A program made the position numbers and the translations under genes. This document shows, piece after piece, positions 7,994 to 62,686 of a stretch of DNA of 64,000 nt. How positions within the stretch are numbered: position 1 is the stretch's first letter; each line of letters opens with the position of its first letter. This DNA is from Nannocystis radixulma (lineage in GTDB: Bacteria > Myxococcota_A > Polyangia > Nannocystales > Nannocystaceae), in the NCBI RefSeq assembly GCF_028369095.1, contig NZ_JAQNDN010000024.1:409350-473349 (forward strand), read 5' to 3'. The notes beneath the pieces are model-generated. The model was not told where the DNA came from. It did no database searches and saw nothing but the letters and a program-made list of their open reading frames with translations.

Positions 7994-8033
7994 GGGACGT
8001 GCTTTTAAGGGCATGTCCCAGGGGGCAGGGATC
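7994..8033. repeat. 14-bp-period palindromic repeat array (about 3 units: gggaCGTGct / gggCATGTccc / ggCAGGGatc) between convergent genes
   Basis: Core spacing is 14 and 14 bp; located between the stop codons at 7968 and 8032. Confidence 0.6.
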
Positions 8034-9316: not shown

Positions 9317-9390
9317 TGAGGATGATATGTCCAAAAGGACATGCGCAAAAAGACATGCATCCGCGCAGGGCGACCCGCGGGGATGCATGT
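9317..9390. repeat. 14-bp-period palindromic repeat array (about 6 units, several degenerate), upstream of the 8609..9106 lipoprotein gene
   Basis: ATG centres at 9317, 9331, 9345 and 9373 with degenerate units at 9359 and 9387; units are gatATGTcc, ggACATGCgc, agACATGCat. Confidence 0.6.
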
Positions 9391-9411: not shown

Positions 9412-10392
9412 TCACTCGCACTGGACGCGGACGTCGACGACCTCGCCCGAGCGCTCCTGGCCCATGCTGCGGTAGACGAAGCGGGCGCGCTCGAGGCCGC
9501 AGTTGCCGCGGTCGTCGCACTCGCGGCGGGTGGTGTAGCCGAGGTCGATCTCGACGATCTCGAAGCTGGCCAGCGGCAGCGTCTCCCAGCCGGTCGAGCG
9601 CCGGTCGCCGTCGTGGTCGGCCCACAGCACGAGCTCGCCCCAGCGCGCGTCGGCGGCGGTGAGCTTGCCGTCGCGGTCGCTGTCGAGCTCGGCGAGGGCG
9701 TCGAAGCCGTTGTGGGGACCTGTCCCCGAGGACATGCGGGTGGCGCTGCCGAACAGCTCGCGGCCGCCGTCGATGCTGCCGTTGCCGTCGCGGTCGAGGG
9801 CGAGCCACGGCGTGGCGGCGCCCGGCCAGTCGGCGCGGGCGCAGCTGCCGGCGCCGCCGTGGATGTCGAAATCGGCCGCGGCCACGGCGGCCGGCGTGAA
9901 CTCGATCGGCTCGCCGAAGCTGAGGACCAGCGGGGTGTTGCAGTCCTCCTGGTTCCACACGCCGCGGCCGTTCTCGTCGGCGACGCAGCCCATGTCGATG
10001 CCGTCGTCCCAACCGCACGACTTGCTCTCGCCCGGCGTGCACTCGTCCTCCTCGACGCAGGCTCCCCAGCGCTTCTCGACGCGGTTGCGCTCGGCCTCGT
10101 AGCTCACGCAGTGCTGGATCCCCTCCTCGCACGGGCGCGTCTCGCCCTCCTCCTCGCAGGTCTCGGTGAGGCAGGCGGTCCAGACGTAGGTGACCTGCTC
10201 GGGCGAATACACGCAGAACTCGACACCCGCGACGCTGTCGAGCTGACAGCCAGCCGGCGCCTCGTCCGAGGCGCACCATTCACCTTCGCGGCCGAAGTCC
10301 TCCAGCTGCGATGCGTGGTCGCCGGGGAGGATCTGGGCGTCGCAGGCGGGGAGGACGAGGAATAGCGTGGATAGGGCGAGCAGGCGGGACAT
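9412..10392 (-). CDS. Secreted lipoprotein with EF-hand-like calcium-binding loops and many paired cysteines
   Basis: MSRLLALSTLFLVLPACDAQ lipobox; DRDGNGSIDGGRELF and DSDRDGKLTAADA are DxDxDG loops. Confidence 0.65.
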   Translation of the reverse strand: MSRLLALSTLFLVLPACDAQILPGDHASQLEDFGREGEWCASDEAPAGCQLDSVAGVEFCVYSPEQVTYVWTACLTETCEEEGETRPCEEGIQHCVSYEAERNRVEKRWGACVEEDECTPGESKSCGWDDGIDMGCVADENGRGVWNQEDCNTPLVLSFGEPIEFTPAAVAAADFDIHGGAGSCARADWPGAATPWLALDRDGNGSIDGGRELFGSATRMSSGTGPHNGFDALAELDSDRDGKLTAADARWGELVLWADHDGDRRSTGWETLPLASFEIVEIDLGYTTRRECDDRGNCGLERARFVYRSMGQERSGEVVDVRVQCE

Positions 10393-11266: not shown

Positions 11267-11334
11267 GACGGCAGCATAGCGCGCGCCTGGCCGGGCGCCC
11301 GCGCAGGCGCTGCGGCGGGCTCGGCCTTGGGATG

Positions 11335-11588
11335 GGAGATGTCCGAAGGAACAGATCGATTCGAATGGCGGGCTCGGCCGGGTGATGGGCGGCGGACGGG
11401 TGGCTGTCCGAAGAGACATACGTCGAGCCCGGTCCCGCGAACGGCCTGGCCCGAGAGACATGTGATACGACACCGGGCCCGGCGGGGCGGAACGTTCGGG
11501 TGAGGATGGTCGCCGCGAGCGCGGGGAGCCGGCGGGCTGAGGCGCGGCGGATCTGTCTCGCAGGACATGTCCATGCGGACACGTCCCG
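11335..11588. repeat. Three separate 14-bp-period palindromic repeat arrays in the pcm-nadE intergenic region (11335-11370, 11400-11466, 11561-11588)
   Basis: Units include gagATGTCCgaagg, ggCTGTCCgaagagACATACgt...gagACATGTgat and caGGACATGTCCatgcGGACACGTCCcg. Phase is kept within each array but not between them. Confidence 0.6.
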
Positions 11589-11596
11589 CGACGAGC

Positions 11597-13579
11597 TCAG
11601 CCGTCGTCGCGCTTGACGAAGGCCTCGAGCTCGGCGAGCTCGTGCGTGAAGCCGCCCGAGAGGATCGGGAAGCGGCACCACGTCTTGGGGTCGAGGTTCT
11701 CGTCGTCGAGGTGGAAGCTCGGGGCGTAGCGCTCGCGCTTCCACTGGTTCTGGCTCCACAGGCGGAAGAAGCGCTTGACCCACAGCAGCATCTGGTCGCG
11801 GGAGTGCTGCGGGAAGCGGCTGGCCAGCACCCGGTAGACCTCCTTCGGCGCCAGCTTGTCGCGGATCGCCGCGCGCTCGATGGCGTCGAGGATCGGGTAG
11901 GGCATCAGGTCGTCCTCGTCGGTCTGATGGGCGCCCGAGGGCCGCAGCTCGGCGGTCGGGGCCTGGACGTTGACGGCGCGCAGCGCGGGCATGGGGCCGA
12001 CGCCCGCGGGGCCCTCGGTCTCGACCCACCGCAGCCACTGGCGCAGGAAGGCCTTGTCGATGCCGGCGATCGGCGACAGGCCGCCGCAGGTGTCGCCGTC
12101 CATGGTGGCGTAGCCGACGGCGGCCTCGCTGCGGTTGCTGGTGGCGAGCAGGAGGGCGCCGCGCAGGTTGGCCAGCAGCCACACGCCGGGGGCGCGGGCG
12201 CGGGCCTGGATGTTCTGCAGGGCGATGTCGTCGCGCTGCCACGACAGCTCGCGGCCGATCGCGGCCTCGACGTTGCTCACGTAGGTGCGCACCAGCGGGT
12301 CGACGTCGAACTCGATGAACTCGGCGCCGACGGCCTCGGCGACCGCGGCGGCGGCGTTGCGCGTGGTGGCGGAGCTGTTGGCGGTCGACTGATAGACGCA
12401 GGTGAGGAGCGAGCGGACGATCGCGCGCGGGGTGGTGCACACGCCCTCGGGCAGGCCCAGGCGGGCGCAGGTGGCCTCGACGCCGAGCTCCTGGACCGCG
12501 AGCGTGACCATGAGGTGCACGAGGTAGGCGACGGCGGCCGAGTCGGCGCCGCCGCTGAGCGAGACGACGAAGCCGCGCGACCGGCTCTTGCGCAGGTAGT
12601 CGAACAGGCCGAGCGCGACGGCCCGCGAGAACTCCTCGCGCTTGTCGTTGCGCTGCTCGTCGTCGGGGTCGACGGTGTGCGGCGGCAGGTCGGCGGCCGG
12701 GAGCTTCATGTCGAAGCGGGTGATCCGGCGGACGTTGTCGTCGACGGTGGGCGCGTAGGTGGTGCGGGCGTGGAGCATGCGCGCGAGGTCGACGTCGACC
12801 ACGGCGCTGGTGAGGTAGACGTCGTCGTAGCCGAGCCGCGGGCCCTCGGCGATCAGGTGACCGATCGAGGCGATCATGCACTCGCCGTCGTAGATGACGC
12901 GGCCGGACTCGTTGCCGATGAAGTTGGAGTAGACGTAGGTGGCGCGGAAGCTGCGCGAGGCGTTGAGGACGATCTGCTTGCGCACCTCGTGCTTGCCGAA
13001 CGCGAAGTGGCTGGCGCTCGGGTTGCAGATGAAGTCGACGCCCTGGCTGGCGAGCTCGACGCCGGGGCGGTTCGGGACCCACGCGTCCTCGCAGATCTCG
13101 AAGCCGATCCGCAGGCCGCCGACCTCGAAGATCTGGTCGCCGAGCGGGTAGCTGTGGCCGTCGTGCTCCCACTGCACGAACTTGCCGGCCGGCCAGCCCT
13201 TGAACCACCGCGGCTCGTAGTGGATGCCGTCGCCGGCGAGGAAGCGCTTGCCGACCAGGCCGACGATCTGGCCGTCGGCGACCAGGCAGACCGCGTTGTA
13301 GTTGGCGGCGCGGTGCATGATCGGCAGGCCGAGCGCGACGACGATGCCCTGCGTCTCCGGCAGCAGCTCCTGCAGCACGCGCCACGACTCGAGGATCGTG
13401 CCGCGGCCGAAGAACGCGTCCTCGCAGCCGTAGCCGGGGATGCACAGCTCGGGCAGGCACAGGACGGCCACGCCCTGCTGGCGGGCCAGGCGGATCGCCT
13501 CGAGGATCCGGGCCTGGTTGCCGTCCCAGTCGAGCGGCGTCTGGTTGAGGGCGGCGGCGGCGACGCGGACGAGGTGCAT
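11597..13579 (-). CDS. nadE: Glutamine-dependent NAD+ synthetase (N-terminal nitrilase/CN-hydrolase domain plus C-terminal NAD synthetase domain)
   Basis: 660 aa; the CN-hydrolase catalytic region (FEICED...) and the PP-loop SLSGGADSA are present. Confidence 0.85.
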   Translation of the reverse strand: MHLVRVAAAALNQTPLDWDGNQARILEAIRLARQQGVAVLCLPELCIPGYGCEDAFFGRGTILESWRVLQELLPETQGIVVALGLPIMHRAANYNAVCLVADGQIVGLVGKRFLAGDGIHYEPRWFKGWPAGKFVQWEHDGHSYPLGDQIFEVGGLRIGFEICEDAWVPNRPGVELASQGVDFICNPSASHFAFGKHEVRKQIVLNASRSFRATYVYSNFIGNESGRVIYDGECMIASIGHLIAEGPRLGYDDVYLTSAVVDVDLARMLHARTTYAPTVDDNVRRITRFDMKLPAADLPPHTVDPDDEQRNDKREEFSRAVALGLFDYLRKSRSRGFVVSLSGGADSAAVAYLVHLMVTLAVQELGVEATCARLGLPEGVCTTPRAIVRSLLTCVYQSTANSSATTRNAAAAVAEAVGAEFIEFDVDPLVRTYVSNVEAAIGRELSWQRDDIALQNIQARARAPGVWLLANLRGALLLATSNRSEAAVGYATMDGDTCGGLSPIAGIDKAFLRQWLRWVETEGPAGVGPMPALRAVNVQAPTAELRPSGAHQTDEDDLMPYPILDAIERAAIRDKLAPKEVYRVLASRFPQHSRDQMLLWVKRFFRLWSQNQWKRERYAPSFHLDDENLDPKTWCRFPILSGGFTHELAELEAFVKRDDG

Positions 13580-13601
13580 TCAATGTCTCCGGGGACAGGG
13601 T

Positions 13602-13616
<15 letters not shown>
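13578..13616. repeat. 14-bp-period palindromic repeat array (3 units) spanning the nadE start codon, the 22-bp intergenic gap and the last codons of prs
   Basis: Centres at 13582, 13596 and 13610: caATGTCTcc / ggACAGGGtc / aGGACATGTCCtg. The prs C-terminus ...LAGHVL is encoded by GGACATGTCC. Confidence 0.65.
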
Positions 13617-14545
<929 letters not shown>

Positions 14546-14549
<4 letters not shown>

Positions 14550-16345
14550 GCGGCCGGGGAAGAGTACCCGGCGGCGAGCGCGTTGGCGACCTCGGTATAG
14601 GCGTAATCGCTGACGCGCTCGTCGATGCGCATGGCGAGCAGCGCCTTGCTGCGGCAGGTGGCCGCGCCGAAGAACGCGCGATCGTCGGCGCACGCGCGCG
14701 CGAGCGCCGGCTCGGTCGACCAGCGCTCGAGGTGATGCTGGAAGATCCGCCGCACCTCCGGCCACAGCTGCGCCGGGTCGGGGCCGCCGGCGTCGTCGAT
14801 CCAGCCGATCACCGCCGCGAGGTGAGCGTGCACCAGCGTGTGCATCAGCTTGCCCTGGGCCTCGGCGAGCTCGTGCGTGATCACGAACGAGTCGGCCGCC
14901 AGCGCAGGGGTGTGACCGCCGGCGGCGAGGCGGCCGCGGTGGAGCCGCACGCCGCCGAGATCGCGGACGAGGAAGCCGCGCGGACGGCCGCCTGCGTGCA
15001 CCAGCAGGGTGTTCTGCAGGTGGGCCTCGAGGGCGACGCCGTGGGCGGTGAGGAGGCGCAGGAGCGGCGGGACCAGCTGGTCGAGGTAGTCGGCGAAGAA
15101 GGCGGCGAGGCGAGCGCGCTGGTCGCCCGGGTAGGCGGCCGCGAGCTCGCGCAGCAGCAGGTCGCCGCCGGGCCGGCGCTCGCCGAGGGCGGCGCAGACG
15201 ATGACCTCAGGGACATGTTCTACGGGAAATGTTTTGAGGGACATGTCGTTCGGGGCATGTCCCAGAGGAGGAGCGGGATCGCGGGCGACCTCGCGAGCGA
15301 GCGGGGCGAGGTCGGGGCGGACGACCACGCCGAGCTGGCCGGCGACGGCGCCGTGGCGCGGGTCGAGGCCGGCAGCGGCGAGGTCGGGCTGGACCCGCAG
15401 GCCGCGGCGGGTGTGCGGATCGGCGGCCTGGATCTGGCGCAGCAGCGCGGCGATCGGCGGGCCGTTGTGGACGGAGGCGGGCGAGACCTGCCGCCGCGCG
15501 CTGGTGGTGTGGATGTCGACGGCGAGCTTGAGGTGCAGCGCAGGCGCGGCGAGGGCGACGGTGCGCAGGCTGAGCAGGGCCCGCGCCGGCAGCGGCGCGA
15601 CGGCGACGGGCCGCACGCGGTCGCCCCACAGCGGGCCGAGCAGGCGCGGCAGCCGGCGCAGCTGGAGGGCGTGGACCGGCAGGCGGACGTACCCGGGCGC
15701 GGGGGCGGGGAACAGCTCGCGCGAGATGTCGGCAAAGACAGCCTCGGCGGCGAGCAGGGCGTCGCCGCGGGCGAGGTCGACGGCGTGGACGGGCGCCTGG
15801 GCCAGCTGATCGGGGCCGTGGCGCAGGTTCTCCCACGCGCGCAGGCCGAGCCGCGTCTTGCTCATGGGGTGCCAGGGGTGGCCGTCGACGACCAGGTTCT
15901 CGGGGTCGAGCGGGCCGCGCCAGGGATGACCCTTGGCGCATGTCCGTTCGCGCAGGTCGGCGGCGACGCGGGCGAGCGCGAGGTTCCAGCGGCTGTCGCC
16001 GAGCTCGCGGGCGAGGCGGGCGCGCACCGGCGGGGCGAGGGCGGGGAGCAGGCGCGGGAGCAGCTCGGCGAGCTCGGGCAGGTCGCTGGCGTCGAGGTCG
16101 GCGGCGTGCAACTCGAAGGCCCGCAGGCGCCGCAGGGGGAGGCTCAAGGAGCATGTCTGAAGGGACATGTCTCGAAGCTCGCTCGTGACGAGCCGCTCGC
16201 GCGCGCAGGCGAGGACGAGCCGGGCGCCGATCGCCTGGCCGGCGCGGCGCCAGTGAGCGAGGAGCGCGGCGGAGTCGAGGCCGGCGCCGAACGCGGCGGG
16301 GACGGCCCGCCCGGCGAAGGCGAGGAAGCGCTCGAGCTCGGTCAC
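14546..16345 (-). CDS. IucA/IucC-family synthetase (NRPS-independent siderophore synthetase-like ATP-dependent amide ligase) with a FhuF-like C-terminal region
   Basis: Family motifs [38 protein letters not shown] and [10 protein letters not shown]...FLVRDLGG. The length (599 aa) and motif spacing match AcsD/DesD-type enzymes. Two repeat arrays lie in-frame inside this CDS. Confidence 0.75.
15196..15262. repeat. 14-bp-period palindromic repeat array (5 phased units) inside the IucA/IucC CDS, read in-frame
   Basis: ATG centres at 15200, 15214, 15228, 15242 and 15256. The stretch encodes ...[20 protein letters not shown]... on the minus strand. Confidence 0.65.
16149..16173. repeat. Two tandem palindromic units (gagCATGTCTgaag-ggACATGTCTcg) inside the N-terminal coding region of the IucA/IucC gene
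   Basis: Centres at 16153 and 16167; the stretch encodes ...[12 protein letters not shown]... Confidence 0.6.
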
Positions 16346-18306: not shown

Positions 18307-18373
18307 CGGCCTGTGCGCCGGGGCATGTTTAAATGGACATGGCTGATCGGGCCTGTCCTCGTGGGCATGTTCA
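18307..18373. repeat. 14-bp-period palindromic repeat array (5-6 units) covering the start codon and the whole signal-peptide coding region of the channel gene
   Basis: Centres at 18311, 18325 (the ATG start), 18339, 18353, 18367 and a degenerate unit at 18381. The array encodes MFKWTWLIGPVLVGMFIQSG. Confidence 0.65.
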
Positions 18374-20683: not shown

Positions 20684-21838
20684 ATGTCGCCGTCTCGTCG
20701 TGTCGATCGTCGCGCCGCCGTCGCGTTCGGGTCCGCGCTCGCCGTGAGCTGCTACCGCGGATCGGGGATGGCCGAAAGTACAGATTCGACGGCGACGGTG
20801 GCGAGCGAGGCGACGACGGCGAGCGAGACGGGCGCGGCGAGCGGGCCGACGACGACGGCGACGACGAGCACGGGCGACGCGCCGACCACGGCGGGGCCGA
20901 CCGTGACGAGCCTGCCGGAGCCGACCGGTACGGGGCCGGACGAGACGTCGACGTCGACGGGGCCGATCGACACCGGGCCGCCGGACAGCACGGGCACGGC
21001 GGGCGAGACCATGGGCGAGCCGGTCGACCCGGTCGCGGCGGTGTGCGAGCGCTGGGCGGCGGACCGAACGGACATGTCTGAAGGGACATGGAGCGGGGCG
21101 GTCGCGGGCTGCATGGCCGGCGACACCGGGGCACCCGGCCGCGACAACGCGCTGCGGCTGGTCAACCTGTACCGCTGGCTGGCCGGGCTGCCGCCGGTCG
21201 GCCACGACGCCGCGCTCAACGCGAAGGCGCAGCAGTGCGCGCTGATGATGCACGCCGAGGGGGCGCTGTCGCACGACCCCGACATGATGTGGGCCTGCTA
21301 CACGGCCGACGGGGCGCAGGCGGCGATGAACAGCAATATCTCGTCGACGCCCGGGGTGGTCGCGGTCGACCTCTACATGGTCGACCCGGGCAACGCGACG
21401 ACCTTCGGCCACCGGCGGTGGATCCTCTCGAGCGCGCTGGGGCCGATCGGGCTCGGCTCGACGTCGGTCAACTCGTGCATGTGGGTGATCGGCGGCCAGG
21501 GCGGCGGGGGCGCCGAATGGACGGCGTGGCCGCCCCCGGGGGTCGTGCCGCTGGCGGCCATCCACGTGCCCGAGGTGCCGTGGGCCAACGTCGACGAGAC
21601 GGGGTGGACGATCCAGAGCAACGACATCGACGTGGGCGCGGCGCAGGTGACGATCCGCGAGAACGGGGTCGACAAGCCGGTCAAGCTGACGACCCTGCAG
21701 GGCGGGTTCGGCTCGAACAGCGCGATCGCCATGACGCCGCAGGGATGGGTCAGCGAGGCCGGCAAGACCTACACGGTGCAGGTGAACGGGGTGCCCCAGC
21801 CGTTCAGCTACGACGTGCAGGTGGTGGCTTGCCCTTGA
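20684..21838 (+). CDS. Secreted lipoprotein with a Thr/Ser-rich linker and a C-terminal CAP/SCP/PR-1-like domain
   Basis: LAVSC lipobox; LVNLYRWLAGLPPV...GHRRWILSS resembles the CAP-domain signature. Confidence 0.65.
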   Translation: MSPSRRVDRRAAVAFGSALAVSCYRGSGMAESTDSTATVASEATTASETGAASGPTTTATTSTGDAPTTAGPTVTSLPEPTGTGPDETSTSTGPIDTGPPDSTGTAGETMGEPVDPVAAVCERWAADRTDMSEGTWSGAVAGCMAGDTGAPGRDNALRLVNLYRWLAGLPPVGHDAALNAKAQQCALMMHAEGALSHDPDMMWACYTADGAQAAMNSNISSTPGVVAVDLYMVDPGNATTFGHRRWILSSALGPIGLGSTSVNSCMWVIGGQGGGGAEWTAWPPPGVVPLAAIHVPEVPWANVDETGWTIQSNDIDVGAAQVTIRENGVDKPVKLTTLQGGFGSNSAIAMTPQGWVSEAGKTYTVQVNGVPQPFSYDVQVVACP

Positions 21839-21890
21839 GGCATGTTTGAGAGGGCATGTCCGTTCGGGCATGCCCTTCAGGGCCTGGTCG
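21838..21890. repeat. 14-bp-period palindromic repeat array (4-5 units) filling the whole convergent intergenic gap
   Basis: Centres at 21842, 21856, 21870 and 21884: gaggCATGTTtg / agggCATGTCcg / cgggCATGCCct / agggCCTGGTcg, with degenerate flanking units overlapping both stop codons. Confidence 0.7.
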
Positions 21891-21891
21891 A

Positions 21892-22347
21892 TCAGGCAGC
21901 CGCGGTCGCGCGGGTGAGGCGGACCTCGATCGCGCGGTCCTCGTCGCCGTTGGGGTGGATGTTGGTGGCCTCGAGCACGAGGAGGTCGCCGTCGCGGCGG
22001 AAGGCGGTGCGCCAGCCCCAGCGCTCGGGGCCGGCGCGGTAGCTGCCGAGGACCGAGATGGCGGGGCCCGCGGGCCCGGTCGACCACAGGGCGGAGGCGC
22101 CGGTGTGGAAGGTGTCGATCCAGTACAGGGTGTGCTCGTGGTCGTCGACCCCGAGGGTCATCTCGCCGTGGTGCGGTTTGCCGGCGCACACGCCGTCGTA
22201 GCGGAGGCGCGCGTAGCGGCCGTCGAGCAGCGACTCGATCTCGACGCGCCAGGTGCTGACCTCGGGGTCGGGGCCGAGCCAGGTGCGCGCGGGGCCAGTC
22301 CATGAGCCAGTGAGTTCGGTGAGGGGGTGCGGCATGGCACCTGTCAT
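21892..22347 (-). CDS. Hypothetical protein, possibly DUF1579-like (lipocalin-like fold)
   Basis: 151-aa ORF with balanced composition and no competing gene; the family call is weak. Confidence 0.45.
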   Translation of the reverse strand: MTGAMPHPLTELTGSWTGPARTWLGPDPEVSTWRVEIESLLDGRYARLRYDGVCAGKPHHGEMTLGVDDHEHTLYWIDTFHTGASALWSTGPAGPAISVLGSYRAGPERWGWRTAFRRDGDLLVLEATNIHPNGDEDRAIEVRLTRATAAA

Positions 22348-24690: not shown

Positions 24691-25077
24691 ATGCGACGGT
24701 TCGCCCTCGCCCTGGCCCTAGCGACCGGGTGCACGCCGATCCCCGCCGGGACATGGACACCGCACGAACCAAGGGCCAGCGCCCTGGCGGCCCGCACGAA
24801 TATCCATACCAATTGTGAAGCCATCCTTGGGGTTCGTCCGTGCCTCCCCGCCGAGGTGCGCGACGGAAGGCCCATCGACTCGGATCCCGACGAGGTTGCG
24901 CCACGGTACTCCGCCGCGGCGTCGAGCAGCGCCGCCGCGACTTCTTCAGCCGGCCGCGCCGCGGCGAAGTCCCCAGCCGCTCGGAGCGGCCCCGCGCCCC
25001 TGGGCACCCAGTTCTGGGGCAAGGTGCTCGAGTCCACCCTGTCGTCGCTTCTCAGGCCATTCAGCAGCTCCCGATGA
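24691..25077 (+). CDS. Possible small lipoprotein (128 aa), low complexity
   Basis: MRRFALALALATGCTPIPAG lipobox-like N-terminus in an otherwise empty 660-bp gap; the rest is Ala/Ser/Arg-rich, so this could be spurious. Confidence 0.3.
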   Translation: MRRFALALALATGCTPIPAGTWTPHEPRASALAARTNIHTNCEAILGVRPCLPAEVRDGRPIDSDPDEVAPRYSAAASSSAAATSSAGRAAAKSPAARSGPAPLGTQFWGKVLESTLSSLLRPFSSSR

Positions 25078-25106
25078 CAGGCCTGAAAGCGGGCCGCGCG
25101 GACACC

Positions 25107-25168
25107 GAGGATGTCCCGCGGGACATGTCGTCCGTGGTGTGGACGACATGTCCTCGGGGACAGATCGA
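25107..25168. repeat. Palindromic repeat array (about 4 units, one spacing irregular) between convergent gene ends
   Basis: gaggATGTCCcgcg, GGACATGTCGtccg, ggACGACATGTCCtcg, ggACAGATCgat; centres at 25111, 25125, 25148 and 25162. Confidence 0.6.
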
Positions 25169-27268
25169 TCAGCCGGGCTCGATCGAGCAGTAGCCGCCGA
25201 TGCAGGTGCCTTCGCCCTCGCAGCAGGCGGCGTCGACCTCGCACGAGTCGCCGATGTGCGAGCAGGTGTCGGGGACGTCGGAGCACACGGCGGGGTCGCC
25301 GTAGCAGAAGCCGTCACAGCAGTCGAAGCCGGCGTTGCAGCCCTGGCCGACCTGCTTGCACGGCGACAGCGCCCACTCGCCGCGCATGTTGGAGTTGTTC
25401 AGCTCCTGGCCCGGGAGCCAGAACGCGGGGTGGCTGGGGTCGGTGCCGGGGGTGATGTTGCCGTCGATGGCGGTCACCCACAGCTGCTTGCGCCGGGTGT
25501 TGGGGTTGGTGTCGGTCAGCGTGTTGCCGTACTTGCGCTCGGAGCCGATGATGAGCCACGAGTAGCCGCCGACCGAGACCGGCAGGAAGGTCGGCTCGTA
25601 GGTGGTCTGGTCCTGGCCGGGCTCGACGATGCCGAAGCCGTTGGCCTTGTCGAGGCGGACCACCGAGGAGCCGTCGAGGTTGGTCAGCCAGACCTCGGTG
25701 ACGGCGGCGCGGGTGCGGGCCTGGTTGAGGCGGTTGAACGCGATCCACTGCGAGTCGGGCGCGAAGGTCGGGAAGGTGGTGGTGGTGAGCCCGGGGATCT
25801 TGTCGACGATCTGGTGGGCGTTGGCGAACGAGTTGGTCATCAGATCGACGTCGACCAGCCACAGCTCGCTGTTGTTGAAGTCGAGCCAGTTGCCGTCGGT
25901 CTTGCGGGCGAACGCGAGCTTGGTGCCGTCGCCCGACCAAACCGGGTGCTGCGGCTTGCCGCCGGGCACGGTGAGCTGCGCCAGCGGGGTCGCGTTGTCG
26001 AAGGTGGTGAGCTTGAGCGCGCCGGTCTCGTCGGACTGGCCCCACACCACGTGCGAGCCGTTGGGCGCGATCGCCTGGAAGCCGGAGGCGAGGTCGGGGA
26101 AGTAGAGCACCTGGCCGGAGGCGGCGTCGATGGTGCTCCACGGGCTGTAGCCGCCGTGGAAGCTGGCGGCGATCCGCGAGCCGTCCTTCGACACGCTGTG
26201 ACAGGCGACGCAGGCCACGCCCGGGGGCTTCTGAATGAACGGCTCGGGCGCGGTGGCGCCGATGTTGAGGCGGACGACGTTGCCGTTGTTGACCTCCCAG
26301 TAATAGACGGTGCCGGTGAGGTTGGCCGGGGCGATCGTCCAGGTCTGGGTCTTGGCGAGGTAGGCCTTCTGGCCGTCGTAGCGGGCGATGTCGAGGTGGA
26401 CGTCGCCCTCGGTCGAGGCGGTCAGCTTGAGCCAGATGTCGGTCGGCAGCGCCGGGAAGTCGAAGCGCGAGGGCGGCGGGACGTTGTGGTAGCCCTTGTA
26501 CTCGAAGAAGTCGCTGTAGGCGTGGACGTAATAGAGGTCGTTGGCGCCGCCGCCGTCCCATTGAATGGTGGGACCGATGAGGCCGCGCGGGAACACGGTC
26601 TTGTCGTATGGATAGAGCAGGACCATCGACGGGTCGGGGTCGACCGCCATCGGGAACAGGTCCTTGGTCTCGGGCGGGACCGGCACCGGCTCGGCGTTGA
26701 ACACCAGCTTGACGGTGGCGTTGGTGGTCGCCGCGGGCAGCTCGCCGGTGCCCTCGAAGGTGACGGTGCCGATGCCGCCGGCGAAGCCCGTGGCCGTGAG
26801 CATGCCGGACAGGTCGCCGATGCCGGCGAGGTCGAGCTTGTCGTACGACCAGGTGCCGGTGACCGGGACCTTGATGCCCTTGTCGGTGATGCCGGTGGCG
26901 GTGTACTGGGTCGCCGCTGGGATGTTGCCGTCGACGACGGTGATGATCGCGTCGAGCGGATCGATCTCGATCGAGACGACCATGCCCGGGTCGTCGCCGG
27001 TGGTCGCGGTGGTCGCCGGATCGACGGTGGTGCCGGTCGAGGTGCCCGTGGGCGGGTTCTCGGTCGGATCGCCGACGGTGCCGGTGCCCTGCGGCTCGGT
27101 GGTCGTCGGCGTCGACGTGGCGGTGGTGTCGGTGCCGGCGGTGGCGTCAGTGGCGGTGACGGTGGTGGAGGCGGAGATGACGGAGCTGTCGGTCTCGGCG
27201 GGGCGATTGGGGTCGCCGCAAGCGAGCAGGCCCGCGGCCGAGAGGAGCGACACAAAATTCCAACGCAT
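25169..27268 (-). CDS. Large secreted lipoprotein: Thr-rich linker, TolB/WD40-like beta-propeller region and a Cys-rich C-terminal knot
   Basis: MRWNFVSLLSAAGLLACGD lipobox; the C-terminus CKQVGQGCNAGFDCCDGFCYGDPAVCSDVPDTCSHIGDSCEVDAACCEGEGTCIGGYC. Confidence 0.7.
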   Translation of the reverse strand: MRWNFVSLLSAAGLLACGDPNRPAETDSSVISASTTVTATDATAGTDTTATSTPTTTEPQGTGTVGDPTENPPTGTSTGTTVDPATTATTGDDPGMVVSIEIDPLDAIITVVDGNIPAATQYTATGITDKGIKVPVTGTWSYDKLDLAGIGDLSGMLTATGFAGGIGTVTFEGTGELPAATTNATVKLVFNAEPVPVPPETKDLFPMAVDPDPSMVLLYPYDKTVFPRGLIGPTIQWDGGGANDLYYVHAYSDFFEYKGYHNVPPPSRFDFPALPTDIWLKLTASTEGDVHLDIARYDGQKAYLAKTQTWTIAPANLTGTVYYWEVNNGNVVRLNIGATAPEPFIQKPPGVACVACHSVSKDGSRIAASFHGGYSPWSTIDAASGQVLYFPDLASGFQAIAPNGSHVVWGQSDETGALKLTTFDNATPLAQLTVPGGKPQHPVWSGDGTKLAFARKTDGNWLDFNNSELWLVDVDLMTNSFANAHQIVDKIPGLTTTTFPTFAPDSQWIAFNRLNQARTRAAVTEVWLTNLDGSSVVRLDKANGFGIVEPGQDQTTYEPTFLPVSVGGYSWLIIGSERKYGNTLTDTNPNTRRKQLWVTAIDGNITPGTDPSHPAFWLPGQELNNSNMRGEWALSPCKQVGQGCNAGFDCCDGFCYGDPAVCSDVPDTCSHIGDSCEVDAACCEGEGTCIGGYCSIEPG

Positions 27269-33137: not shown

Positions 33138-33210
33138 GTGGCTGAAGGGACATGCCCCTGAGAGCCTGTGCTCAGGGGCATGGCTCCGAGGACATGTCCG
33201 AATCGCCACC
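33132..33210. repeat. 14-bp-period palindromic repeat array (5-6 units) between convergent genes, overlapping the last 8 codons of the methyltransferase gene
   Basis: Centres at 33150, 33164, 33178 and 33192 exactly 14 bp apart; units are ggacatgccc, gagcctgtgc, gggcatggct and a perfect ggacatgtcc. Confidence 0.7.
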
Positions 33211-34446
33211 CTCGGCGCGGAAGTAGCGGAAGCCGCCGCCGCCGCGCCAGCCGACCACCGCGGTGACGCCGCTGGGGTCGCGCCCGTCGACGACGGCGCG
33301 CAGGCGGGCTGCCACCAGGCCGTCGCAGTGGTCGCCGCGCTCGACGAGGATCCACCGCCGCCGCAGCTTGTGGGCGACGGCGCCGGTGGTGCCCGAGCCG
33401 GCGTAGACGTCGAGGACCCAGTCGCCGGGGCGGGTCGACAGCTCGAGCACGCGCTTCAGCAGGGCCTCGGGCTTCTTGCCCTTGGGGAAGGCGACGCCGC
33501 CCTCGTTGTGCAGGTTGTTGGACAGCAGGTCGTCCCAGATGGTGGTGAGCGGCTCGCCGGCGACCCGCTCGCCGTCGATGTGCTTGAGCTTGGCGGCGTA
33601 GAAGAGGATCCGCTCGCCGCGGACGAAGTAGAAGTCGTCGTGGTCGTCGCGCTCCAGCCGGAGCACCTGCCCCGGCGCGGCCTTCGAGCGGTCGATCATG
33701 GCCCGCGCGGCGGCGCTGACGGCGTTGTAGTCGGGCCGCGCGAGGCGGACGACGGCGTCGGCGTGGTCGAGGACGAAGCGGTCGAGCCGCGCCGGCTCGT
33801 CGCGCGCGAGCTGCCGGGCGGCGCGCTCAGCCAGGCCCTCGGCGTCGGCGAAGGCGCGCAGCAGGGTGACGATCCGCCACGCCTCGTGCGGCTCGCCGCG
33901 GTTGACGATGAACTGGGCGTAACGTGGGTCGCGCTCGCGGGCGGTGAACAGCCGCGGCGGGTTCCAGCGCGCGCGGTCCTTCGCGTAGACGAGGACGAAG
34001 TTGGAGGTGGTGACGCAGCCGGGGTTGATCGCCTTGTGGCCGGTCGGCGCGCCCTGCTTGAAGGTGACGACCGAGGCCCGGTTGGCGCGCCCGAACACCT
34101 CGTCGAGCAGGACGATGAGGTAGCCGAGCTCGTTGTCGTCGATGTGCACGAACAGGGTGCCGTCAGCGGCGAGCAGGCGGCGCAACACCTCGAGTCGCGC
34201 GCGGATGTCGGCGAGCCAGCGCGCGTGCTCGACCCCGTCGTCATAGTGGGCGAAGGCGCGGCCGGTGTTGTACGGTGGATCGATGTAGACGCAGCGGATC
34301 TTGCCGGCGAACTCGGACTCGAGCGCGAGCAGGGCGGGCAGGTTGTCGCCGCGGATCAGGCGGTTGTCGTACAGCTCGCCGTCGACCTCGGGGCCGCCGG
34401 CGCGGTACGATCGCGCGAGATCTTCGATCAGGGGACGCGGGTCCAC
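33172..34446 (-). CDS. Beta-class (motif IV before motif I) N6-adenine/N4-cytosine DNA methyltransferase, Mod-like, with no restriction partner
   Basis: IDPPYNTG (motif IV) near the N-terminus and LDVYAGSGTTG (motif I) near the C-terminus with about 300 aa between them, a putative target-recognition domain. No res or helicase gene is adjacent. Confidence 0.75.
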   Translation of the reverse strand: MDPRPLIEDLARSYRAGGPEVDGELYDNRLIRGDNLPALLALESEFAGKIRCVYIDPPYNTGRAFAHYDDGVEHARWLADIRARLEVLRRLLAADGTLFVHIDDNELGYLIVLLDEVFGRANRASVVTFKQGAPTGHKAINPGCVTTSNFVLVYAKDRARWNPPRLFTARERDPRYAQFIVNRGEPHEAWRIVTLLRAFADAEGLAERAARQLARDEPARLDRFVLDHADAVVRLARPDYNAVSAAARAMIDRSKAAPGQVLRLERDDHDDFYFVRGERILFYAAKLKHIDGERVAGEPLTTIWDDLLSNNLHNEGGVAFPKGKKPEALLKRVLELSTRPGDWVLDVYAGSGTTGAVAHKLRRRWILVERGDHCDGLVAARLRAVVDGRDPSGVTAVVGWRGGGGFRYFRAEGGDSDMSSEPCP

Positions 34447-37087: not shown

Positions 37088-37126
37088 CGCAAGCTGTCCC
37101 ACGAGACAGGTCACGGAACAGGCACC
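37088..37126. repeat. Short palindromic repeat array (about 2-3 units) in the 37-bp convergent gap
   Basis: gCTGTCCcacgagACAGGTCacggaACAGGCACCTGg; centres 37094 and 37108. Confidence 0.45.
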
Positions 37127-37632
37127 TGGGCGGACGCGCCGCGGCAGATCGGTTCGCACCCGGGGCCGTTGGGCTGCGATTCGACGTAGGTCGGGGTGAG
37201 CTCGCCGGCCCACAGCTGCTGGCCGTCGCGGCGGATCGCCAGCTCGAGCTTGGCCGGGCTGCTCGGCACCAGGATGTCCGCGAAGCCATGTTGCTCGGGC
37301 GGCAAGGCGCAGCCGGATTCGCCGATCTGCACGCGCTCCGGGACGTCGCAGGTGAGCGAGGGGCCCGCGTCGCAGGGGCGCAGCGGCAGCGAGCCGGTGC
37401 AGGTGACGGGCGCGCCGTCGAGCGCGAAGCTGAACGTGTACTCGCCCGGGGCCCAGCCGCTGGTCGCCTTGAGTTCGATGCGCAGGCCGCCGATGCAGCC
37501 GATCTCGGTGCACATCTTGCCACCGCCGCCGGGGTCGGTCGGCTCGACCTGGCCCTTGGAGCATGCGCAAAAGAACAGGCAGGCGGACAGCACGACGGCG
37601 GCGCGGGGACGGGGCATGCCCGAGCTTGGCAC
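37111..37632 (-). CDS. Small secreted lipoprotein (about 170 aa)
   Basis: AAVVLSACLFFCACSKGQ lipobox. Its signal-peptide coding region (37563-37620) is itself built from phased palindromic units. The first ATG overlaps the predicted start of the divergent sterol reductase, so one of the two starts is wrong. Confidence 0.55.
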   Translation of the reverse strand: MPSSGMPRPRAAVVLSACLFFCACSKGQVEPTDPGGGGKMCTEIGCIGGLRIELKATSGWAPGEYTFSFALDGAPVTCTGSLPLRPCDAGPSLTCDVPERVQIGESGCALPPEQHGFADILVPSSPAKLELAIRRDGQQLWAGELTPTYVESQPNGPGCEPICRGASAQVPVP

Positions 37633-38790: not shown

Positions 38791-38815
38791 CCGAGAGCTG
38801 TCTCTTCGGCCATGT
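38791..38815. repeat. Two palindromic units (gagaGCTGTCTCttcg-GCCATGTGTaat) in the convergent gap between the sterol reductase and the SDR gene
   Basis: Centres about 14 bp apart between the stops at 38767 and 38834. Confidence 0.45.
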
Positions 38816-38833
38816 GTAATGAATCGCCGCCGC

Positions 38834-40175: not shown

Positions 40176-40181
40176 CTGCCA

Positions 40182-40258
40182 GGATATGCATGAACGAACA
40201 TGTCGAGAAAGGCATGTCAAAGAAGACATGTCTATGAGGACATGACCGAACAGTCTCC
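40182..40258. repeat. 14-bp-period palindromic repeat array (5-6 units) downstream of the GFA gene; a second irregular cluster lies at 40413-40468
   Basis: ATG centres at 40186, 40200, 40214, 40228 and 40242: atATGCATga / gaACATGTCg / agGCATGTCa / agACATGTCt / agGACATGAcc. Confidence 0.7.
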
Positions 40259-42931: not shown

Positions 42932-42933
42932 GC

Positions 42934-43018
42934 GGACAGTGTCCGAGCGGACAGGTCTATCGAGGCATGTCCGATCAGACATTGTCCATTCGGACATGTC
43001 CTTTCATTGTGACAGGAA
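42934..43018. repeat. 14-bp-period palindromic repeat array (6-7 units) between convergent genes
   Basis: gGACAGTGTCCgagcGGACAGGTCtatcgagGCATGTCCgatcaGACATTGTCCattcGGACATGTCCtttCATTGTGACAGG; it overlaps the stop codons at 42931 and 43004. Confidence 0.7.
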
Positions 43019-47036: not shown

Positions 47037-47738
47037 ATGACCTCAGGGACTCGCCACACCCGTGCTTCTTCTTCCCCCACCGCGACGGCCGACCGCCCGG
47101 CGGCAGCCAAGGCCCGCTTCTGGGACAAGATCGCCCGCAAGTACGCCGCCGATCCCGTCACGGACATGGCGGGCTACGAGACGACGCTGGCCCGCGCGCG
47201 GGCGCTGATCGCCCCGACGCACCGGGTGCTCGAGATCGGCTGCGGCACGGGCACGACCGCCCTGCGCCTGGGGCCCTGCTACGGGCACCTCGTGGCCACC
47301 GACGTGTCCGCGGAGATGATCGCCATCGCCCGCGAGAAGCTCGCCGCGGCGCCGCAGCCCAACCTCGAGTTCCAGGTCGTCGACGCCGATGCCCTCGCGT
47401 TCGGTCAGGCCAGCCACGACGTGGTGCTGGCGTTCAACGTGCTGCACCTGGTGTCGGACCTCGACGCGGCTCTGACCTCGGTCGAGAACACCCTCGCGCC
47501 CGGCGGGCTCTTCATCTCCAAGACGCCCTGCATCGCCGACATGAACCCGCTCCTCGGCAAGGTGCTCTTGCCGGTGATGCGCCTGGTCGGCAAGGCGCCG
47601 CCCGTGCTGTGCTTTCGCGCGCCCGACCTGCAAGCGGCCCTGACGCGACACGGGCTGGAGATCGTCGCGGTCGAGTACCACGGCACCAAGGGCAAGGACC
47701 TCCGACCGTTCATCGTGGCGCGCAAGCGGGGCTCATGA
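47037..47738 (+). CDS. Class I SAM-dependent methyltransferase (small-molecule type)
   Basis: VLEIGCGTGTTALRL (motif I), DVVLAFNVLHLV (motif II/III). Confidence 0.8.
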   Translation: MTSGTRHTRASSSPTATADRPAAAKARFWDKIARKYAADPVTDMAGYETTLARARALIAPTHRVLEIGCGTGTTALRLGPCYGHLVATDVSAEMIAIAREKLAAAPQPNLEFQVVDADALAFGQASHDVVLAFNVLHLVSDLDAALTSVENTLAPGGLFISKTPCIADMNPLLGKVLLPVMRLVGKAPPVLCFRAPDLQAALTRHGLEIVAVEYHGTKGKDLRPFIVARKRGS

Positions 47739-47772
47739 AGATGTCCTTGGGGACATGTGTGTACATTGCGCG
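47737..47772. repeat. Palindromic repeat units (2-3) between the convergent methyltransferase and TetR gene ends
   Basis: gaagATGTCCttgg-GGACATGTGTgtACATTGcg; centres at 47741 and 47755. Confidence 0.55.
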
Positions 47773-52204: not shown

Positions 52205-52282
52205 TCAGGGCGATCGGACAGCTTACGCAGGCGGCCGCGAGCGCCGCGGCGCACATGCCCGAACGGACAGGTGCGGCGCGCG

Positions 52283-58946: not shown

Positions 58947-59090
58947 GGCGAGGCTGAACGGGGCGCGAAGGTGGGCGCGCGGGGCCGGCGATCGTGGATC
59001 GGCGGGGGCCTGATGAGCTGGTCGATGGGACAGGTGGCGATCGGGGCGCGATGAGCAGTTCGCCGCGCGGAGGGAGTGGCGTGGGGGCTT

Positions 59091-59345
59091 CGCTGATTGC
59101 CGGATGCGCCTCGCGGGGGGTCCGGGGATGGCTCGGCCGCCAGTTCAGCGTGCCGATGACCCCGACTTCGTCGTGGTCATCTCGCCCTCGTATTGGCGGC
59201 CGAGCCATCCCCGGACCCCATGCACGGCTCACCCGTGAGAAGCCGGCCCGCCGTGGTGGGCTTCGATGAGGGATGTCTCTTGGGGCAGGTCGTCGGCGCC
59301 TGTTCGACGGCCTGGTCGGCCGCCGAACAGACGCTTTCTCGCGGA
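59091..59345 (+). repeat. Copy A of a ~255-bp structured element with a perfect 25-bp-stem hairpin (59119-59143 pairs with 59197-59221, 53-nt loop); MITE-like or a structured ncRNA
   Basis: About 90% identical to the inverted copy at 61751-62000. The stem is ggggtccggggatggctcggccgcc ... ggcggccgagccatccccggacccc. Confidence 0.7.
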
Positions 59346-59402
59346 CATGCCGGCGGGCCTCGTGGCGCGGCGAATTCCCGCGACGAGCGGGACGACTGCG
59401 CT

Positions 59403-62000: not shown

Positions 62001-62029
62001 AATCAGCGAAGCGACTGCAGCCGGTCTCC

Positions 62030-62122
62030 GGGTCTCGAAACGTCTCCATGTCTTGGAGGACATGCCCTATCGAGCATGCTTCATTAAGCATGTCGAATCG
62101 AACATGCTCGATGCGACATCAG
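62030..62122. repeat. 14-bp-period palindromic repeat array (6-7 units) immediately downstream of the permease gene and next to hairpin-element copy B
   Basis: ATG centres at 62048, 62062, 62076, 62090 and 62104, exactly 14 bp apart: tCCATGTCtt / gGACATGCCc / gaGCATGCTt / aaGCATGTCg / gaACATGCTc. Confidence 0.7.
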
Positions 62123-62619: not shown

Positions 62620-62686
62620 TCCGTGGAGATGCTGAATGTGTTTGAATGGACAGGTCCAGAAGGACCTGGTGCAGAGGCCATGTCAG
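62620..62686. repeat. 14-bp-period palindromic repeat array (about 5 units) in the 5' region of the permease gene
   Basis: Centres at 62624, 62638, 62652, 62666 and 62680: CCGTGGAG / AATGTGTT / GGACAGGTCC / GGACCTGGT / GGCCATGTCA. Confidence 0.55.

What the first reader, a model, noticed from the sequence alone, without database searches (positions are those of the whole stretch)
21828..21900. Arrays occupy most convergent gene junctions, consistent with bidirectional hairpin terminators
Of about 14 convergent gene junctions in the window, 10 carry an array: 7994, 21838, 25107, 33132, 37088, 38791, 40182, 42934, 47737, and weakly 49969. The remaining four (23526/23549, 30275/30313, 46046/46065, 57669/57705) have gaps of about 37 bp or less, or overlapping gene ends. 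In several cases, such as 21839-21891, the whole intergenic gap is array and both stop codons are embedded in degenerate end units. A palindromic unit pair forms the same hairpin on both strands, which would suit a factor-independent bidirectional terminator or mRNA 3'-end stabiliser in a genome that lacks U-tracts. Arrays also occur in promoter-proximal positions of tandem genes (9317, 11335-11588, 60311, 62620). Termination therefore cannot be the only role; operator-like binding of an oligomerising regulator is an alternative.
Basis: partly seen in the sequence, partly recalled or inferred. Interest (0 to 1): 0.7.

Follow-up and report, generated by a model that had tools for sequence, protein, structure and literature searches.

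The report
Phased palindromic repeat arrays at gene ends
In this Nannocystis (myxobacterial) genome, short arrays of a 14-base palindromic repeat sit just after stop codons, above all where two genes point at each other, and never between diverging genes; they look like an undescribed REP-like family that probably marks or protects mRNA 3' ends in a genome with no classical terminators.

Summary
The unit is GGACATGTCC plus 4 variable bases, repeated 2-7 times with a strict 14-nt period. The window has about 27 arrays, against about 0.4 in shuffles. Arrays sit at 7 of 13 convergent, 9 of 27 co-directional and 0 of 13 divergent junctions. In about 590 kb from other Nannocystis genomes the pattern is the same. 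With database gene calls it is 10/25, 15/68 and 0/24.

Arrays lie next to stop codons, even inside long convergent gaps. The "promoter-proximal" arrays are also stop-proximal, so no second role is needed.

Adjacent units fold into 10-12 bp hairpins on both strands. They co-vary in the pairing geometry, and no U-tract follows them. Arrays occupy the same junctions in five species: units and spacing are kept while spacers are scrambled. Spacing is exactly 14 nt in 99% of adjacent strong units, which implies a factor that reads both sequence and phase. About 20% of arrays lie in frame inside ORFs.

Best reading: a REP/BIME-like 3'-end element that acts through hairpins and works in both directions. 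Termination is untested. A DNA-bound protein lattice and selfish DNA remain rivals. I found no published description.

The parts
21837..21890 (.). The array of the finding. It has three strong units plus one degenerate unit and fills the 53-nt convergent gap.
   Evidence: Folds at -36.4 (+) and -31.3 (-) kcal/mol. The orthologous junction carries an array in N. exedens, N. punicea and N. pusilla.
20684..21838 (+). CAP-domain protein gene whose stop abuts the array. The start is uncertain (20684 or 20798).
   Evidence: Pfam PF00188; syntenic.
21892..22347 (-). DUF1579 gene converging on the array.
   Evidence: Pfam PF07617; syntenic.
7994..8019 (.). 2-unit array in convergent gap 7968+|8032-.
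33147..33200 (.). 4-unit array at convergent junction 33137+|33172-. It overlaps the last 9 codons of the N6/N4 DNA methylase gene.
   Evidence: The same overlap is seen in N. bainbridge and N. punicea.
38793..38818 (.). Weak 2-unit array in convergent gap 38767+|38834-.
   Evidence: It was not found at the corresponding junctions of three other species.
40181..40248 (.). 5-unit array, 5 nt after the stop of the GFA gene, in convergent gap 40175+|40561-.
42948..43002 (.). 4-5-unit array filling convergent gap 42931+|43004-. It folds as one long hairpin.
   Evidence: -38.2 and -36.1 kcal/mol, z about -6. Conserved in three species.
47736..47761 (.). 2-unit array overlapping the stop at 47738, in convergent gap 47738+|47788-.
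   Evidence: The TetR-side convergent junctions in N. pusilla and N. punicea also carry arrays.
37089..37126 (.). Sub-threshold degenerate units at convergent junction 37073+|37111-.
25106..25168 (.). Two 2-unit arrays forming a 15-bp perfect hairpin, ending immediately upstream (no intervening base) of the stop at 25169-25171 of gene 25169-27268(-). The junction is probably co-directional.
   Evidence: The orthologous site in L105 has a different, non-motif hairpin.
9322..9361 (.). 3-unit array, 50 nt after the stop of 9412-10392(-), in a co-directional gap.
11548..11587 (.). 3-unit array, 9 nt after the stop of the NAD synthase gene 11597-13579(-). A second 2-unit array lies at 11334-11359.
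   Evidence: Conserved in three species.
13592..13617 (.). 2-unit array overlapping the stop of the PRPP synthetase gene 13602-14549(-).
   Evidence: Conserved in three species.
15210..15263 (.). 4-unit array in frame inside the IucA/IucC-type siderophore synthetase gene 14546-16345(-), between its two Pfam domains.
   Evidence: The insert length varies among orthologues and is absent from distant homologues.
16148..16173 (.). 2-unit array in the N-terminal coding part of the same gene (peptide DMSL..TC).
18320..18373 (.). 4-unit array, 33 nt after the stop at 18286 and at or just before the start of the NMT1_3 gene.
   Evidence: Conserved in three species.
52250..52275 (.). 2-unit array, 7 nt after the stop of 52283-53245(-).
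62043..62110 (.). 5-unit array, 8 nt after the stop of 62119-62610(-).
62647..62686 (.). 3-unit array, 30 nt after the stop of 62717-64000(-).

Best explanation
The arrays belong to a family of strictly phased palindromic repeats found across Nannocystis and related Nannocystaceae. Each unit is GGACATGTCC plus 4 variable bases, with a 14-nt period and 2-7 copies. If the window is typical, a genome holds a few thousand arrays.

Shown: the arrays lie in the first bases after stop codons, so they are transcribed into 3' UTRs. Because the unit is its own reverse complement, any two neighbouring units pair into a 10-12 bp stem with a 2-4 nt loop. The same hairpin forms on either strand.

Inferred, most likely role: the arrays act like REP/BIME elements. 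They form stable 3'-terminal stem-loops that stop 3'-to-5' exonucleases, and so define the mature 3' end after factor-dependent termination. They may also attenuate read-through without a U-tract. At convergent junctions one array would serve both transcripts.

Inferred: the conserved unit sequence and the invariant spacing imply a partner that reads sequence and phase. It has not been identified. Array size changes by slippage, and some arrays persist in frame inside ORFs.
For: The repeat is real and periodic.

Position:
- Window: convergent 7/13, co-directional 9/27, divergent 0/13.
- 74 Nannocystis loci with my gene calls: 60%, 22% and 20%. After removing the junctions that caused each locus to be fetched: 35%, 13% and 15%.
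- Six loci chosen by orthology, with database gene calls: 10/25, 15/68 and 0/24, p = 6e-4.
- 39% of the first 60 nt after stops carry an array, against 4% of the 60 nt before starts.
- In co-directional gaps arrays lie a median 39 nt from the stop and 184 nt from the next start.
- In convergent gaps of 150 nt or more, where there is no promoter to avoid, arrays still lie next to a stop: median 24 nt against 63 nt under uniform placement, p = 0.001. Long gaps often hold one array per stop.
- Convergent arrays are larger: 3.5 against 2.7 units, p = 0.002.

Structure:
- Hairpins form on both strands, z from -3 to -6.7.
- The variable R/Y positions do not co-vary within a unit (odds ratio 0.87). 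They do co-vary between adjacent units in the pairing geometry (odds ratios 1.9 and 2.75, p = 0.006 and 5e-5).
- Units almost never occur singly: 136 against 1 in convergent gaps.
- At one orthologous site a non-motif hairpin replaces the array.
- Array-free 3' ends are also somewhat more structured than 5' regions.

No alternative terminator: there is no U-tract after arrays, and canonical terminators occur at chance level.

Conservation: the same junctions carry arrays in five species, with units and spacing kept and spacers scrambled.

Precedent: in E. coli, REPs are about 60% convergent, 40% tandem and 1% divergent, and act as both terminators and stabilisers.
Against: - There are no RNA data, so termination and stabilisation are inferred only.
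- Sense and antisense strands fold equally well, and G.U pairs are not favoured over A.C on the sense strand. Nothing therefore shows that the pairing is selected in RNA rather than in DNA.
- Spacers add nothing to folding energy.
- A hairpin alone does not explain why spacing is exactly 14 nt in 219 of 222 adjacent strong units.
- A hairpin alone also does not explain why one stem sequence is kept at every locus while spacers are random.
- By established knowledge, hairpins without U-tracts generally do not terminate bacterial RNA polymerase on their own.
- 40-65% of convergent junctions lack an array.
- About 20% of arrays are inside ORFs.
- Most statistics rest on my own codon-based gene caller. 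The scoring matrix was trained on the window.
Confidence: 0.5

Rival explanations
1. The arrays act as double-stranded DNA. A dimeric DNA-binding protein coats them cooperatively, one dimer per 14 bp (three per four helical turns). The lattice at gene ends would block RNA polymerase from either side, act as an insulator, or recruit gyrase or a nucleoid protein where convergent transcription builds up positive supercoils.
For: - The phase is exact, 99% at 14 nt, even though spacers are random and orthologous arrays show no indels. This fits a protein ruler better than a hairpin loop.
- The unit sequence is conserved at every locus and in every species.
- The arrays show complete strand symmetry.
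- Units need a neighbour, as expected for cooperative or dyad binding.
- Two adjacent units create ATGT-N8-ACAT, the PadR-family dyad.
- In unrelated bacteria the two-unit version occurs as single promoter sites. In Mycolicibacterium it lies between a padR gene and its neighbour.
- Convergent junctions carry more units.
- From my own knowledge, MetJ metbox arrays (2-5 tandem 8-bp palindromes) and REP-gyrase binding are precedents.
Against: - Co-variation of the outer pair (position 1 of one unit with position 6 of the next, odds ratio 1.9) is expected for a stem. It is not expected for independent half-sites, because these two positions belong to different dyads.
- About 20% of arrays sit inside ORFs and persist across species. 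That would be costly for a roadblock.
- A topological or nucleoid role does not predict arrays within about 25 nt of stop codons.
- No candidate protein was identified, and there is no PadR gene in the window.
Confidence: 0.22
2. The arrays are selfish or mutation-driven repeats with no host function. They are seeded by a mobile process and grown by replication slippage at hairpins. They survive where they do least harm, which is beyond stop codons and away from promoters.
For: - The same convergent > tandem >> divergent bias is seen for REPs, MITEs and other small repeats.
- In-frame copies occur in ORFs, as with Rickettsia palindromic elements. The units contain no stop codon in any of the six frames (sequence).
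- Copy number varies between orthologues, and higher-order 60-nt duplications occur in N. punicea.
Against: - Arrays occupy the same junctions in five species while spacers have diverged to near randomness. The units and the phase are nevertheless kept, which indicates purifying selection.
- There is no master copy: nearly all 26-mers are unique. This argues against recent replicative spread.
- In long convergent gaps, which have no promoters to avoid, arrays still lie next to stops.
- No transposase is present in the window.
Confidence: 0.15
3. The arrays are operators in promoter regions, bound by an oligomerising regulator that controls initiation of the downstream gene.
For: - Tandem palindromic units with strict spacing resemble operator arrays.
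- A few arrays lie nearer a start than a stop (23 of 84).
Against: - Arrays occur at 0 of 13 divergent junctions in the window and 0 of 24 with database gene calls.
- Only 4% of start-proximal 60-nt windows carry an array, against 39% of stop-proximal ones.
- Flanking genes are unrelated in function.
- The extrapolated number of sites is in the thousands.
Confidence: 0.03

Closest known systems
REP / BIME elements of Enterobacteria and Pseudomonas
   Same: - Both are short GC-rich palindromes present in very many copies and often clustered in arrays.
- Both lie in 3' UTRs. E. coli REPs are about 60% convergent, 40% tandem and 1% divergent, and occupy about 30% of convergent gaps.
- Both form hairpins on both strands.
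- REPs have a documented dual role as partial terminators and mRNA stabilisers, and they also bind gyrase and IHF.
   Different: - The unit here is a 10-nt perfect palindrome in a strict 14-nt lattice, not a 20-40-nt imperfect palindrome with alternating orientation and defined linkers.
- There is no GTAG head.
- There is no sign of master copies or recent spread.
- About 20% of copies are inside ORFs, whereas E. coli REPs are all extragenic.
- A link to a RAYT transposase was not tested.
Hairpin-only ('I-shaped') terminators proposed for high-GC bacteria, and bidirectional terminators between convergent genes
   Same: - A GC-rich stem-loop lies right after the stop.
- There is no U-tract.
- The element is symmetric, so it can act in both directions.
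   Different: - Those hairpins have unique sequences. Here one motif with a fixed phase is reused at every locus.
- Whether hairpins without a U-tract terminate at all is disputed (my own knowledge).
Rickettsia palindromic elements (RPE)
   Same: Palindromic repeats that persist in frame inside protein-coding genes (cites Ogata 2000).
   Different: - RPEs are 100-150 bp single elements, not arrays of 14-nt units.
- RPEs have no marked preference for the region after stop codons.
DNA uptake sequences (DUS/USS) as inverted pairs downstream of genes in Neisseria and Haemophilus
   Same: A short conserved motif is kept genome-wide by a trans-acting system. Pairs of it form terminator-like hairpins at 3' ends (my own knowledge).
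   Different: - DUS/USS are not self-palindromic.
- They do not form phased tandem arrays.
- An uptake function for the Nannocystis motif is unknown.
Operator arrays of tandem palindromes (MetJ metboxes; PadR dyad ATGT-N8-ACAT)
   Same: - Palindromic units occur in 2-5 tandem copies with exact spacing.
- Adjacent Nannocystis units spell the PadR dyad.
   Different: - Operators sit in promoters in a handful of copies.
- These arrays avoid promoter-only gaps and occur at a large share of gene ends.

Membership tests
REP/BIME | Short palindromic units able to form stem-loops | tested here: met
   Folds on both strands; inter-unit co-variation.
REP/BIME | High copy number with convergent/tandem >> divergent placement in 3' regions | tested here: met
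   Compare the E. coli figures.
REP/BIME | Strictly extragenic | tested here: not met
   About 57 of 277 arrays lie in solid ORFs. The IucC-like gene carries two in-frame arrays.
REP/BIME | Conserved 5' GTAG tetranucleotide and an imperfect 20-40-nt palindrome | tested here: not met
   The unit consensus is GGACATGTCC plus N4, with no GTAG.
REP/BIME | Cognate RAYT (Y1 transposase) gene flanked by the repeats | not tested
   There is no transposase among the window's proteins.
Canonical intrinsic terminator | GC-rich hairpin followed by a U-tract | tested here: not met
   The hairpin is present, but T makes up only 7-31% of the 20 nt downstream. Consensus terminators occur at chance level.
Transcription-factor operator array (PadR- or MetJ-like) | Dyad or tandem palindromes with fixed spacing | tested here: met
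   ATGT-N8-ACAT is formed by adjacent units. Spacing is 14 nt in 219 of 222 adjacent strong units.
Transcription-factor operator array (PadR- or MetJ-like) | Located in promoter regions of regulated genes | tested here: not met
   0/13 and 0/24 divergent junctions carry an array. 4% of start-proximal windows carry one, against 39% of stop-proximal windows.
CRISPR | Repeats separated by unique spacers of about 26-72 nt, with cas genes nearby | tested here: not met
   Spacers are 4 nt. Arrays have 2-7 units. There are no Cas domains in the window.
Rickettsia palindromic elements | In-frame insertion in ORFs of a 100-150-bp palindromic element | tested here: inconclusive
   The in-frame location is met for a minority of arrays. 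Element size and architecture differ.
Known RNA families (Rfam) | Match to a curated covariance model | tested here: not met
   No hit at gathering score in the whole window.

The most novel reading that the evidence does not exclude
Nannocystis uses a dedicated factor that reads both sequence and phase. It recognises the GGACATGTCC lattice, either as double-stranded DNA or as the hairpin, to end transcription from both directions without a U-tract. This would be a protein-dependent, motif-coded terminator system in a bacterium. It would be comparable in logic to the mTERF or Reb1/TTF-I roadblock terminators of organelles and eukaryotes. The arrays would then be its genome-wide punctuation marks.
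Probability: 0.15. Interest if true: 0.9.

Novelty: new variant of a known kind. Interest (0 to 1): 0.66.

Why it matters
How very GC-rich bacteria end their transcripts without U-tract terminators is a long-standing open question. Here a single, easily recognised motif marks about 40% of the gene ends that have room for it. It occupies roughly half of convergent junctions and is conserved across a genus with 11-13 Mb genomes.

This gives hundreds of natural test cases, with 2 to 7 units, in both orientations and even inside ORFs, for 3'-end mapping and reporter assays.

The contrast between scrambled spacers and invariant units and phase also points to an unidentified trans-acting factor that could be fished out with an array as bait.

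In practice, the arrays are useful markers for annotating gene ends and operon boundaries in Nannocystis. They are also candidate compact bidirectional insulators for engineering myxobacteria.

Tried and rejected
- An exact-sequence look-up of a window protein found nothing. The organism was identified instead from the pattern scan and from a 97%-identical protein of Nannocystis sp. SCPEA4.
- Rfam gave no hit.
- Eight literature searches found no description of these arrays.
- Shuffling spacers changed folding energy by only -0.38 kcal/mol, p = 0.15. I therefore rejected long nested hairpins held together by complementary spacers as the general rule, although 42932-43006 and 33138-33205 do fold that way.
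- Strand-specific RNA selection gave no signal. This covers unit composition by gene direction, sense against antisense energy, and G.U against A.C pairs (136 against 130).
- A first partner-shuffle test of unit complementarity was confounded by array quality. I replaced it with the position-specific contingency test.
- My first GC3 gene caller mis-called shadow ORFs and was replaced. The replacement still mis-assigned 37111-37632; orthologue annotation corrected this.
- Apparent arrays in a 41%-GC MAG (L008) are artefacts of scoring AT-rich DNA with a GC-calibrated matrix.
- The non-Nannocystis hits of the pattern scan are single operator-like sites, not arrays.
- CRISPR and MITE readings do not fit the anatomy.
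Full report
WHAT IS THERE

The window is 72% G+C. Its proteins are 97% identical to those of Nannocystis sp. SCPEA4 and 75-80% identical to those of N. exedens, N. punicea and N. pusilla. At 21828-21900 a CAP-domain gene (+) and a DUF1579 gene (-) converge (Pfam). The 53-nt gap between their stops is filled by GAGGCATGTTTGAG AGGGCATGTCCGTT CGGGCATGCCCTTC AGGGCCTGGTCGAT.

The repeat unit is the 10-nt palindrome GGACATGTCC followed by 4 variable bases.
- GACATGTC with up to one mismatch occurs 57 times, against 24 +/- 5 expected.
- Distances between core hits pile up at 14 (28 pairs), 28 (12) and 42 (5), against 1-3 elsewhere.
- A position-weight caller finds 25 arrays, against 0.4 in shuffles. 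After merging two versions of the matrix there are 27.

WHERE THE FAMILY OCCURS

75 of them came from Nannocystis or Nannocystaceae genomes. The other hits are single operator-like sites, TTGACATGTCA-N4-TGACATGTCA, in unrelated bacteria. Rfam has no match. Eight literature searches found no description of the arrays.

CHECKING THE OBSERVATION

I built a codon-usage gene caller. I checked most junction-flanking genes with Pfam and with the annotation of orthologous loci.

The window has 13 convergent junctions.
- Seven carry significant arrays: 7994, 21837, 33147, 38793, 40181, 42948 and 47736.
- Six do not. These have gaps of 37 nt or less, or overlapping gene ends.
- None of 13 divergent junctions has an array. 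Nine of 27 co-directional junctions do.

- 37088 is truly convergent. The gene 37111-37632(-) is annotated in three species and has coding score +53.7. It holds only sub-threshold units.
- 25107 is a real array and a perfect 15-bp hairpin. The small '+' ORF needed to make the junction convergent scores -20.5 and is not conserved.
- 49969 has no array.

GENERALISATION ACROSS THE GENUS

In 74 Nannocystis 8-kb loci, arrays occupy 52 of 86 convergent, 58 of 267 co-directional and 14 of 69 divergent junctions. After removing the junctions that hold the exact pair which caused each locus to be fetched, the figures are 35%, 13% and 15%. Convergent against co-directional gives p = 3e-4.

In six loci fetched only by orthology to window genes, and using the database's own gene calls, the counts are 10/25, 15/68 and 0/24 (convergent against divergent, p = 6e-4).

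Array density per kb is 5.7 in convergent gaps, 1.4 in co-directional gaps, 0.65 in divergent gaps and 0.16 in coding sequence.

ARRAYS FOLLOW STOP CODONS

- In co-directional gaps the median distance to the upstream stop is 39 nt. The median distance to the next start is 184 nt. 61 arrays are closer to the stop and 23 closer to the start.
- 39% of the first 60 nt after stops hold an array, against 4% of the 60 nt before starts.
- In convergent gaps of 150 nt or more there is no promoter to avoid. Arrays still lie a median 24 nt from a stop, against 63 nt under uniform placement (p = 0.001). Long gaps often hold one array per stop.
A single 3'-end role therefore covers all of them.
- Convergent arrays are longer, 3.5 against 2.7 units (p = 0.002).

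STRUCTURE

- RNA folds of the arrays are strong on both strands. For 21828-21900 the energies are -36.4 and -31.3 kcal/mol (z -3.5 and -4.1). For 42932-43006 they are -38.2 and -36.1 (z about -6).
- The stems come from the units. Shuffling spacers changes the energy by only -0.38 kcal/mol (p = 0.15).
- The clearest evidence that pairing matters comes from the most variable positions, R at position 1 and Y at position 6. Within a unit they do not co-vary (odds ratio 0.87). Between adjacent units, in the geometry of a hairpin, they do (odds ratios 1.9 and 2.75; p = 0.006 and 5e-5). Same-position similarity is weaker.
- Units hardly ever occur alone. 370 of 429 strong units have an in-phase neighbour. 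In convergent gaps the count is 136 against 1.
- No U-tract follows the arrays. Canonical terminators occur only at chance level: 7 against 4.3 +/- 2.0, and 4 against 4.4 +/- 2.3.
- Nothing distinguishes RNA from DNA pairing. Sense and antisense energies are equal. G.U pairs do not exceed A.C pairs on the sense strand, 136 against 130.

EVOLUTION

Two syntenic regions were recovered from N. exedens, N. punicea, N. pusilla and N. bainbridge.
- Arrays sit at the same junctions in all species. These include the DUF1579/CAP junction of the finding, the Mtase/209-aa junction (which overlaps the last 9 codons of the methylase in each species), the junction orthologous to 42948, and several co-directional junctions.
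- Arrays are absent from the same divergent junctions in all species.
- The four orthologous arrays of the finding align over 64 columns without a single gap. Unit cores are conserved and every spacer differs.
- Across the pooled data, adjacent strong units are exactly 14 nt apart in 219 of 222 cases. Yet 463 spacers fall into 232 distinct hexamers, and almost every 26-mer is unique.
- Unit sequence and phase are therefore under constraint while spacers are free. A hairpin by itself does not require this. The pattern implies a trans-acting reader of sequence and spacing (inference).
- Copy number changes between species. N. punicea shows 60-nt higher-order duplications.

ARRAYS INSIDE GENES

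The 4-unit array at 15210-15263 lies in frame between the IucA_IucC and FhuF domains of a siderophore synthetase gene. Orthologues carry array-encoded peptides (..HA..DMSL.TFP.EHV..) of different lengths at that site. Distant homologues lack the insert. About 57 of 277 arrays in the pooled loci lie in solid ORFs. The unit has no stop codon in any frame (read directly from the sequence). This resembles Rickettsia palindromic elements. It is easier to reconcile with an RNA hairpin, which ribosomes can melt, than with a tight DNA roadblock.

INTERPRETATION

The closest known system is REP/BIME. E. coli REPs are about 60% convergent, 40% tandem and 1% divergent. They occupy about 30% of convergent gaps and act as partly Rho-dependent terminators and as mRNA stabilisers.

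I therefore favour a REP-like 3'-end element that works through inter-unit hairpins and in both directions at convergent junctions (confidence 0.5).

It is not a member of the REP family as that family is defined. It has no GTAG head, it has a different architecture, it is not strictly extragenic, and a RAYT link is untested.

The main rival (0.22) is a protein lattice on double-stranded DNA. The exact phase, the strand symmetry and the fact that adjacent units spell the PadR dyad ATGT-N8-ACAT speak for it. The outer-pair co-variation, the arrays inside ORFs and the closeness to stop codons speak against it.

Purely selfish DNA (0.15) is disfavoured by conservation across species without master copies. 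Promoter operators (0.03) are disfavoured by 0 of 37 divergent junctions carrying an array.

CAVEATS

- The gene calls in the large sample are my own.
- The scoring matrix was trained on the window.
- The 74 loci were fetched because each contains a perfect pair of units.
- Orthologous junctions in different species are not independent observations.
- No transcript data exist here, so every functional step is inferred.

Noticed in passing
window 59078-59374 and 61725-62012 (inverted copy); L079 3366-3663; L037 623-917: Two inverted copies of a conserved non-coding element of about 290 nt, also present in N. exedens and N. pusilla at 72-77% identity. Its core is a long hairpin of about 165 nt (MFE -158.9 kcal/mol, z -7.8). 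The stem shows compensatory changes between species (ATGGCTC/GAGCCAT against AAGGGCC/GGCCCTT). It has no Rfam match. It could be a structured RNA or a MITE-like element, and each copy lies next to a 14-nt array.
   Followed up: partly
window 15210-15263 and 16148-16173, inside gene 14546-16345(-): Repeat arrays are translated in frame inside an IucA/IucC-type siderophore synthetase. The insert length varies among Nannocystis orthologues and is absent from distant homologues. About 20% of arrays in the pooled loci lie inside ORFs.
   Followed up: yes
L111 1526-1751 (N. punicea); also L010 3667-4118 and L004 3766-4617: Higher-order tandem duplications of about 60 nt. Each carries a 2-unit array. 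In L111 each also carries about 40 nt of the 3' end of the CAP gene, and the duplications fill the convergent gap.
   Followed up: partly
L047 2235 (Mycolicibacterium); L024, L034, L054, L087 (other actinobacteria); L032, L050, L082 (Pseudomonas); L043, L055, L076, L081, L084, L091 (roseobacters): Single sites TTGACATGTCA-N4-TGACATGTCA, with the same 14-bp spacing, recur in promoter-like positions in unrelated bacteria. In Mycolicibacterium the site lies between a padR gene and an RPE65-type oxygenase gene. This fits the PadR dyad ATGT-N8-ACAT.
   Followed up: partly
window 25106-25168 compared with L105 500-560: At the orthologous 3' end of the PD40 beta-propeller gene, a related Nannocystis MAG has a different hairpin (GATGACCCCCGGGACC...GGCCCGAGGGTCATC) in place of the motif array. 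This suggests that the hairpin, not the motif, is what is kept at this site.
   Followed up: partly
window 33172-34446(-) and its orthologues in L114 and L115: An N6/N4 DNA methylase gene ends inside a 4-unit array in every species examined. Its last 9 codons are array sequence. No link between the methylase and the CATG-containing motif was tested.
   Followed up: no
window 24691-25077(+): This ORF begins MRRFALALALATGC, which looks like a lipoprotein signal peptide. Its coding score is negative (-20.5) and it is not conserved in L105. It is probably not a gene, but it decides whether the 25107 junction is convergent.
   Followed up: partly
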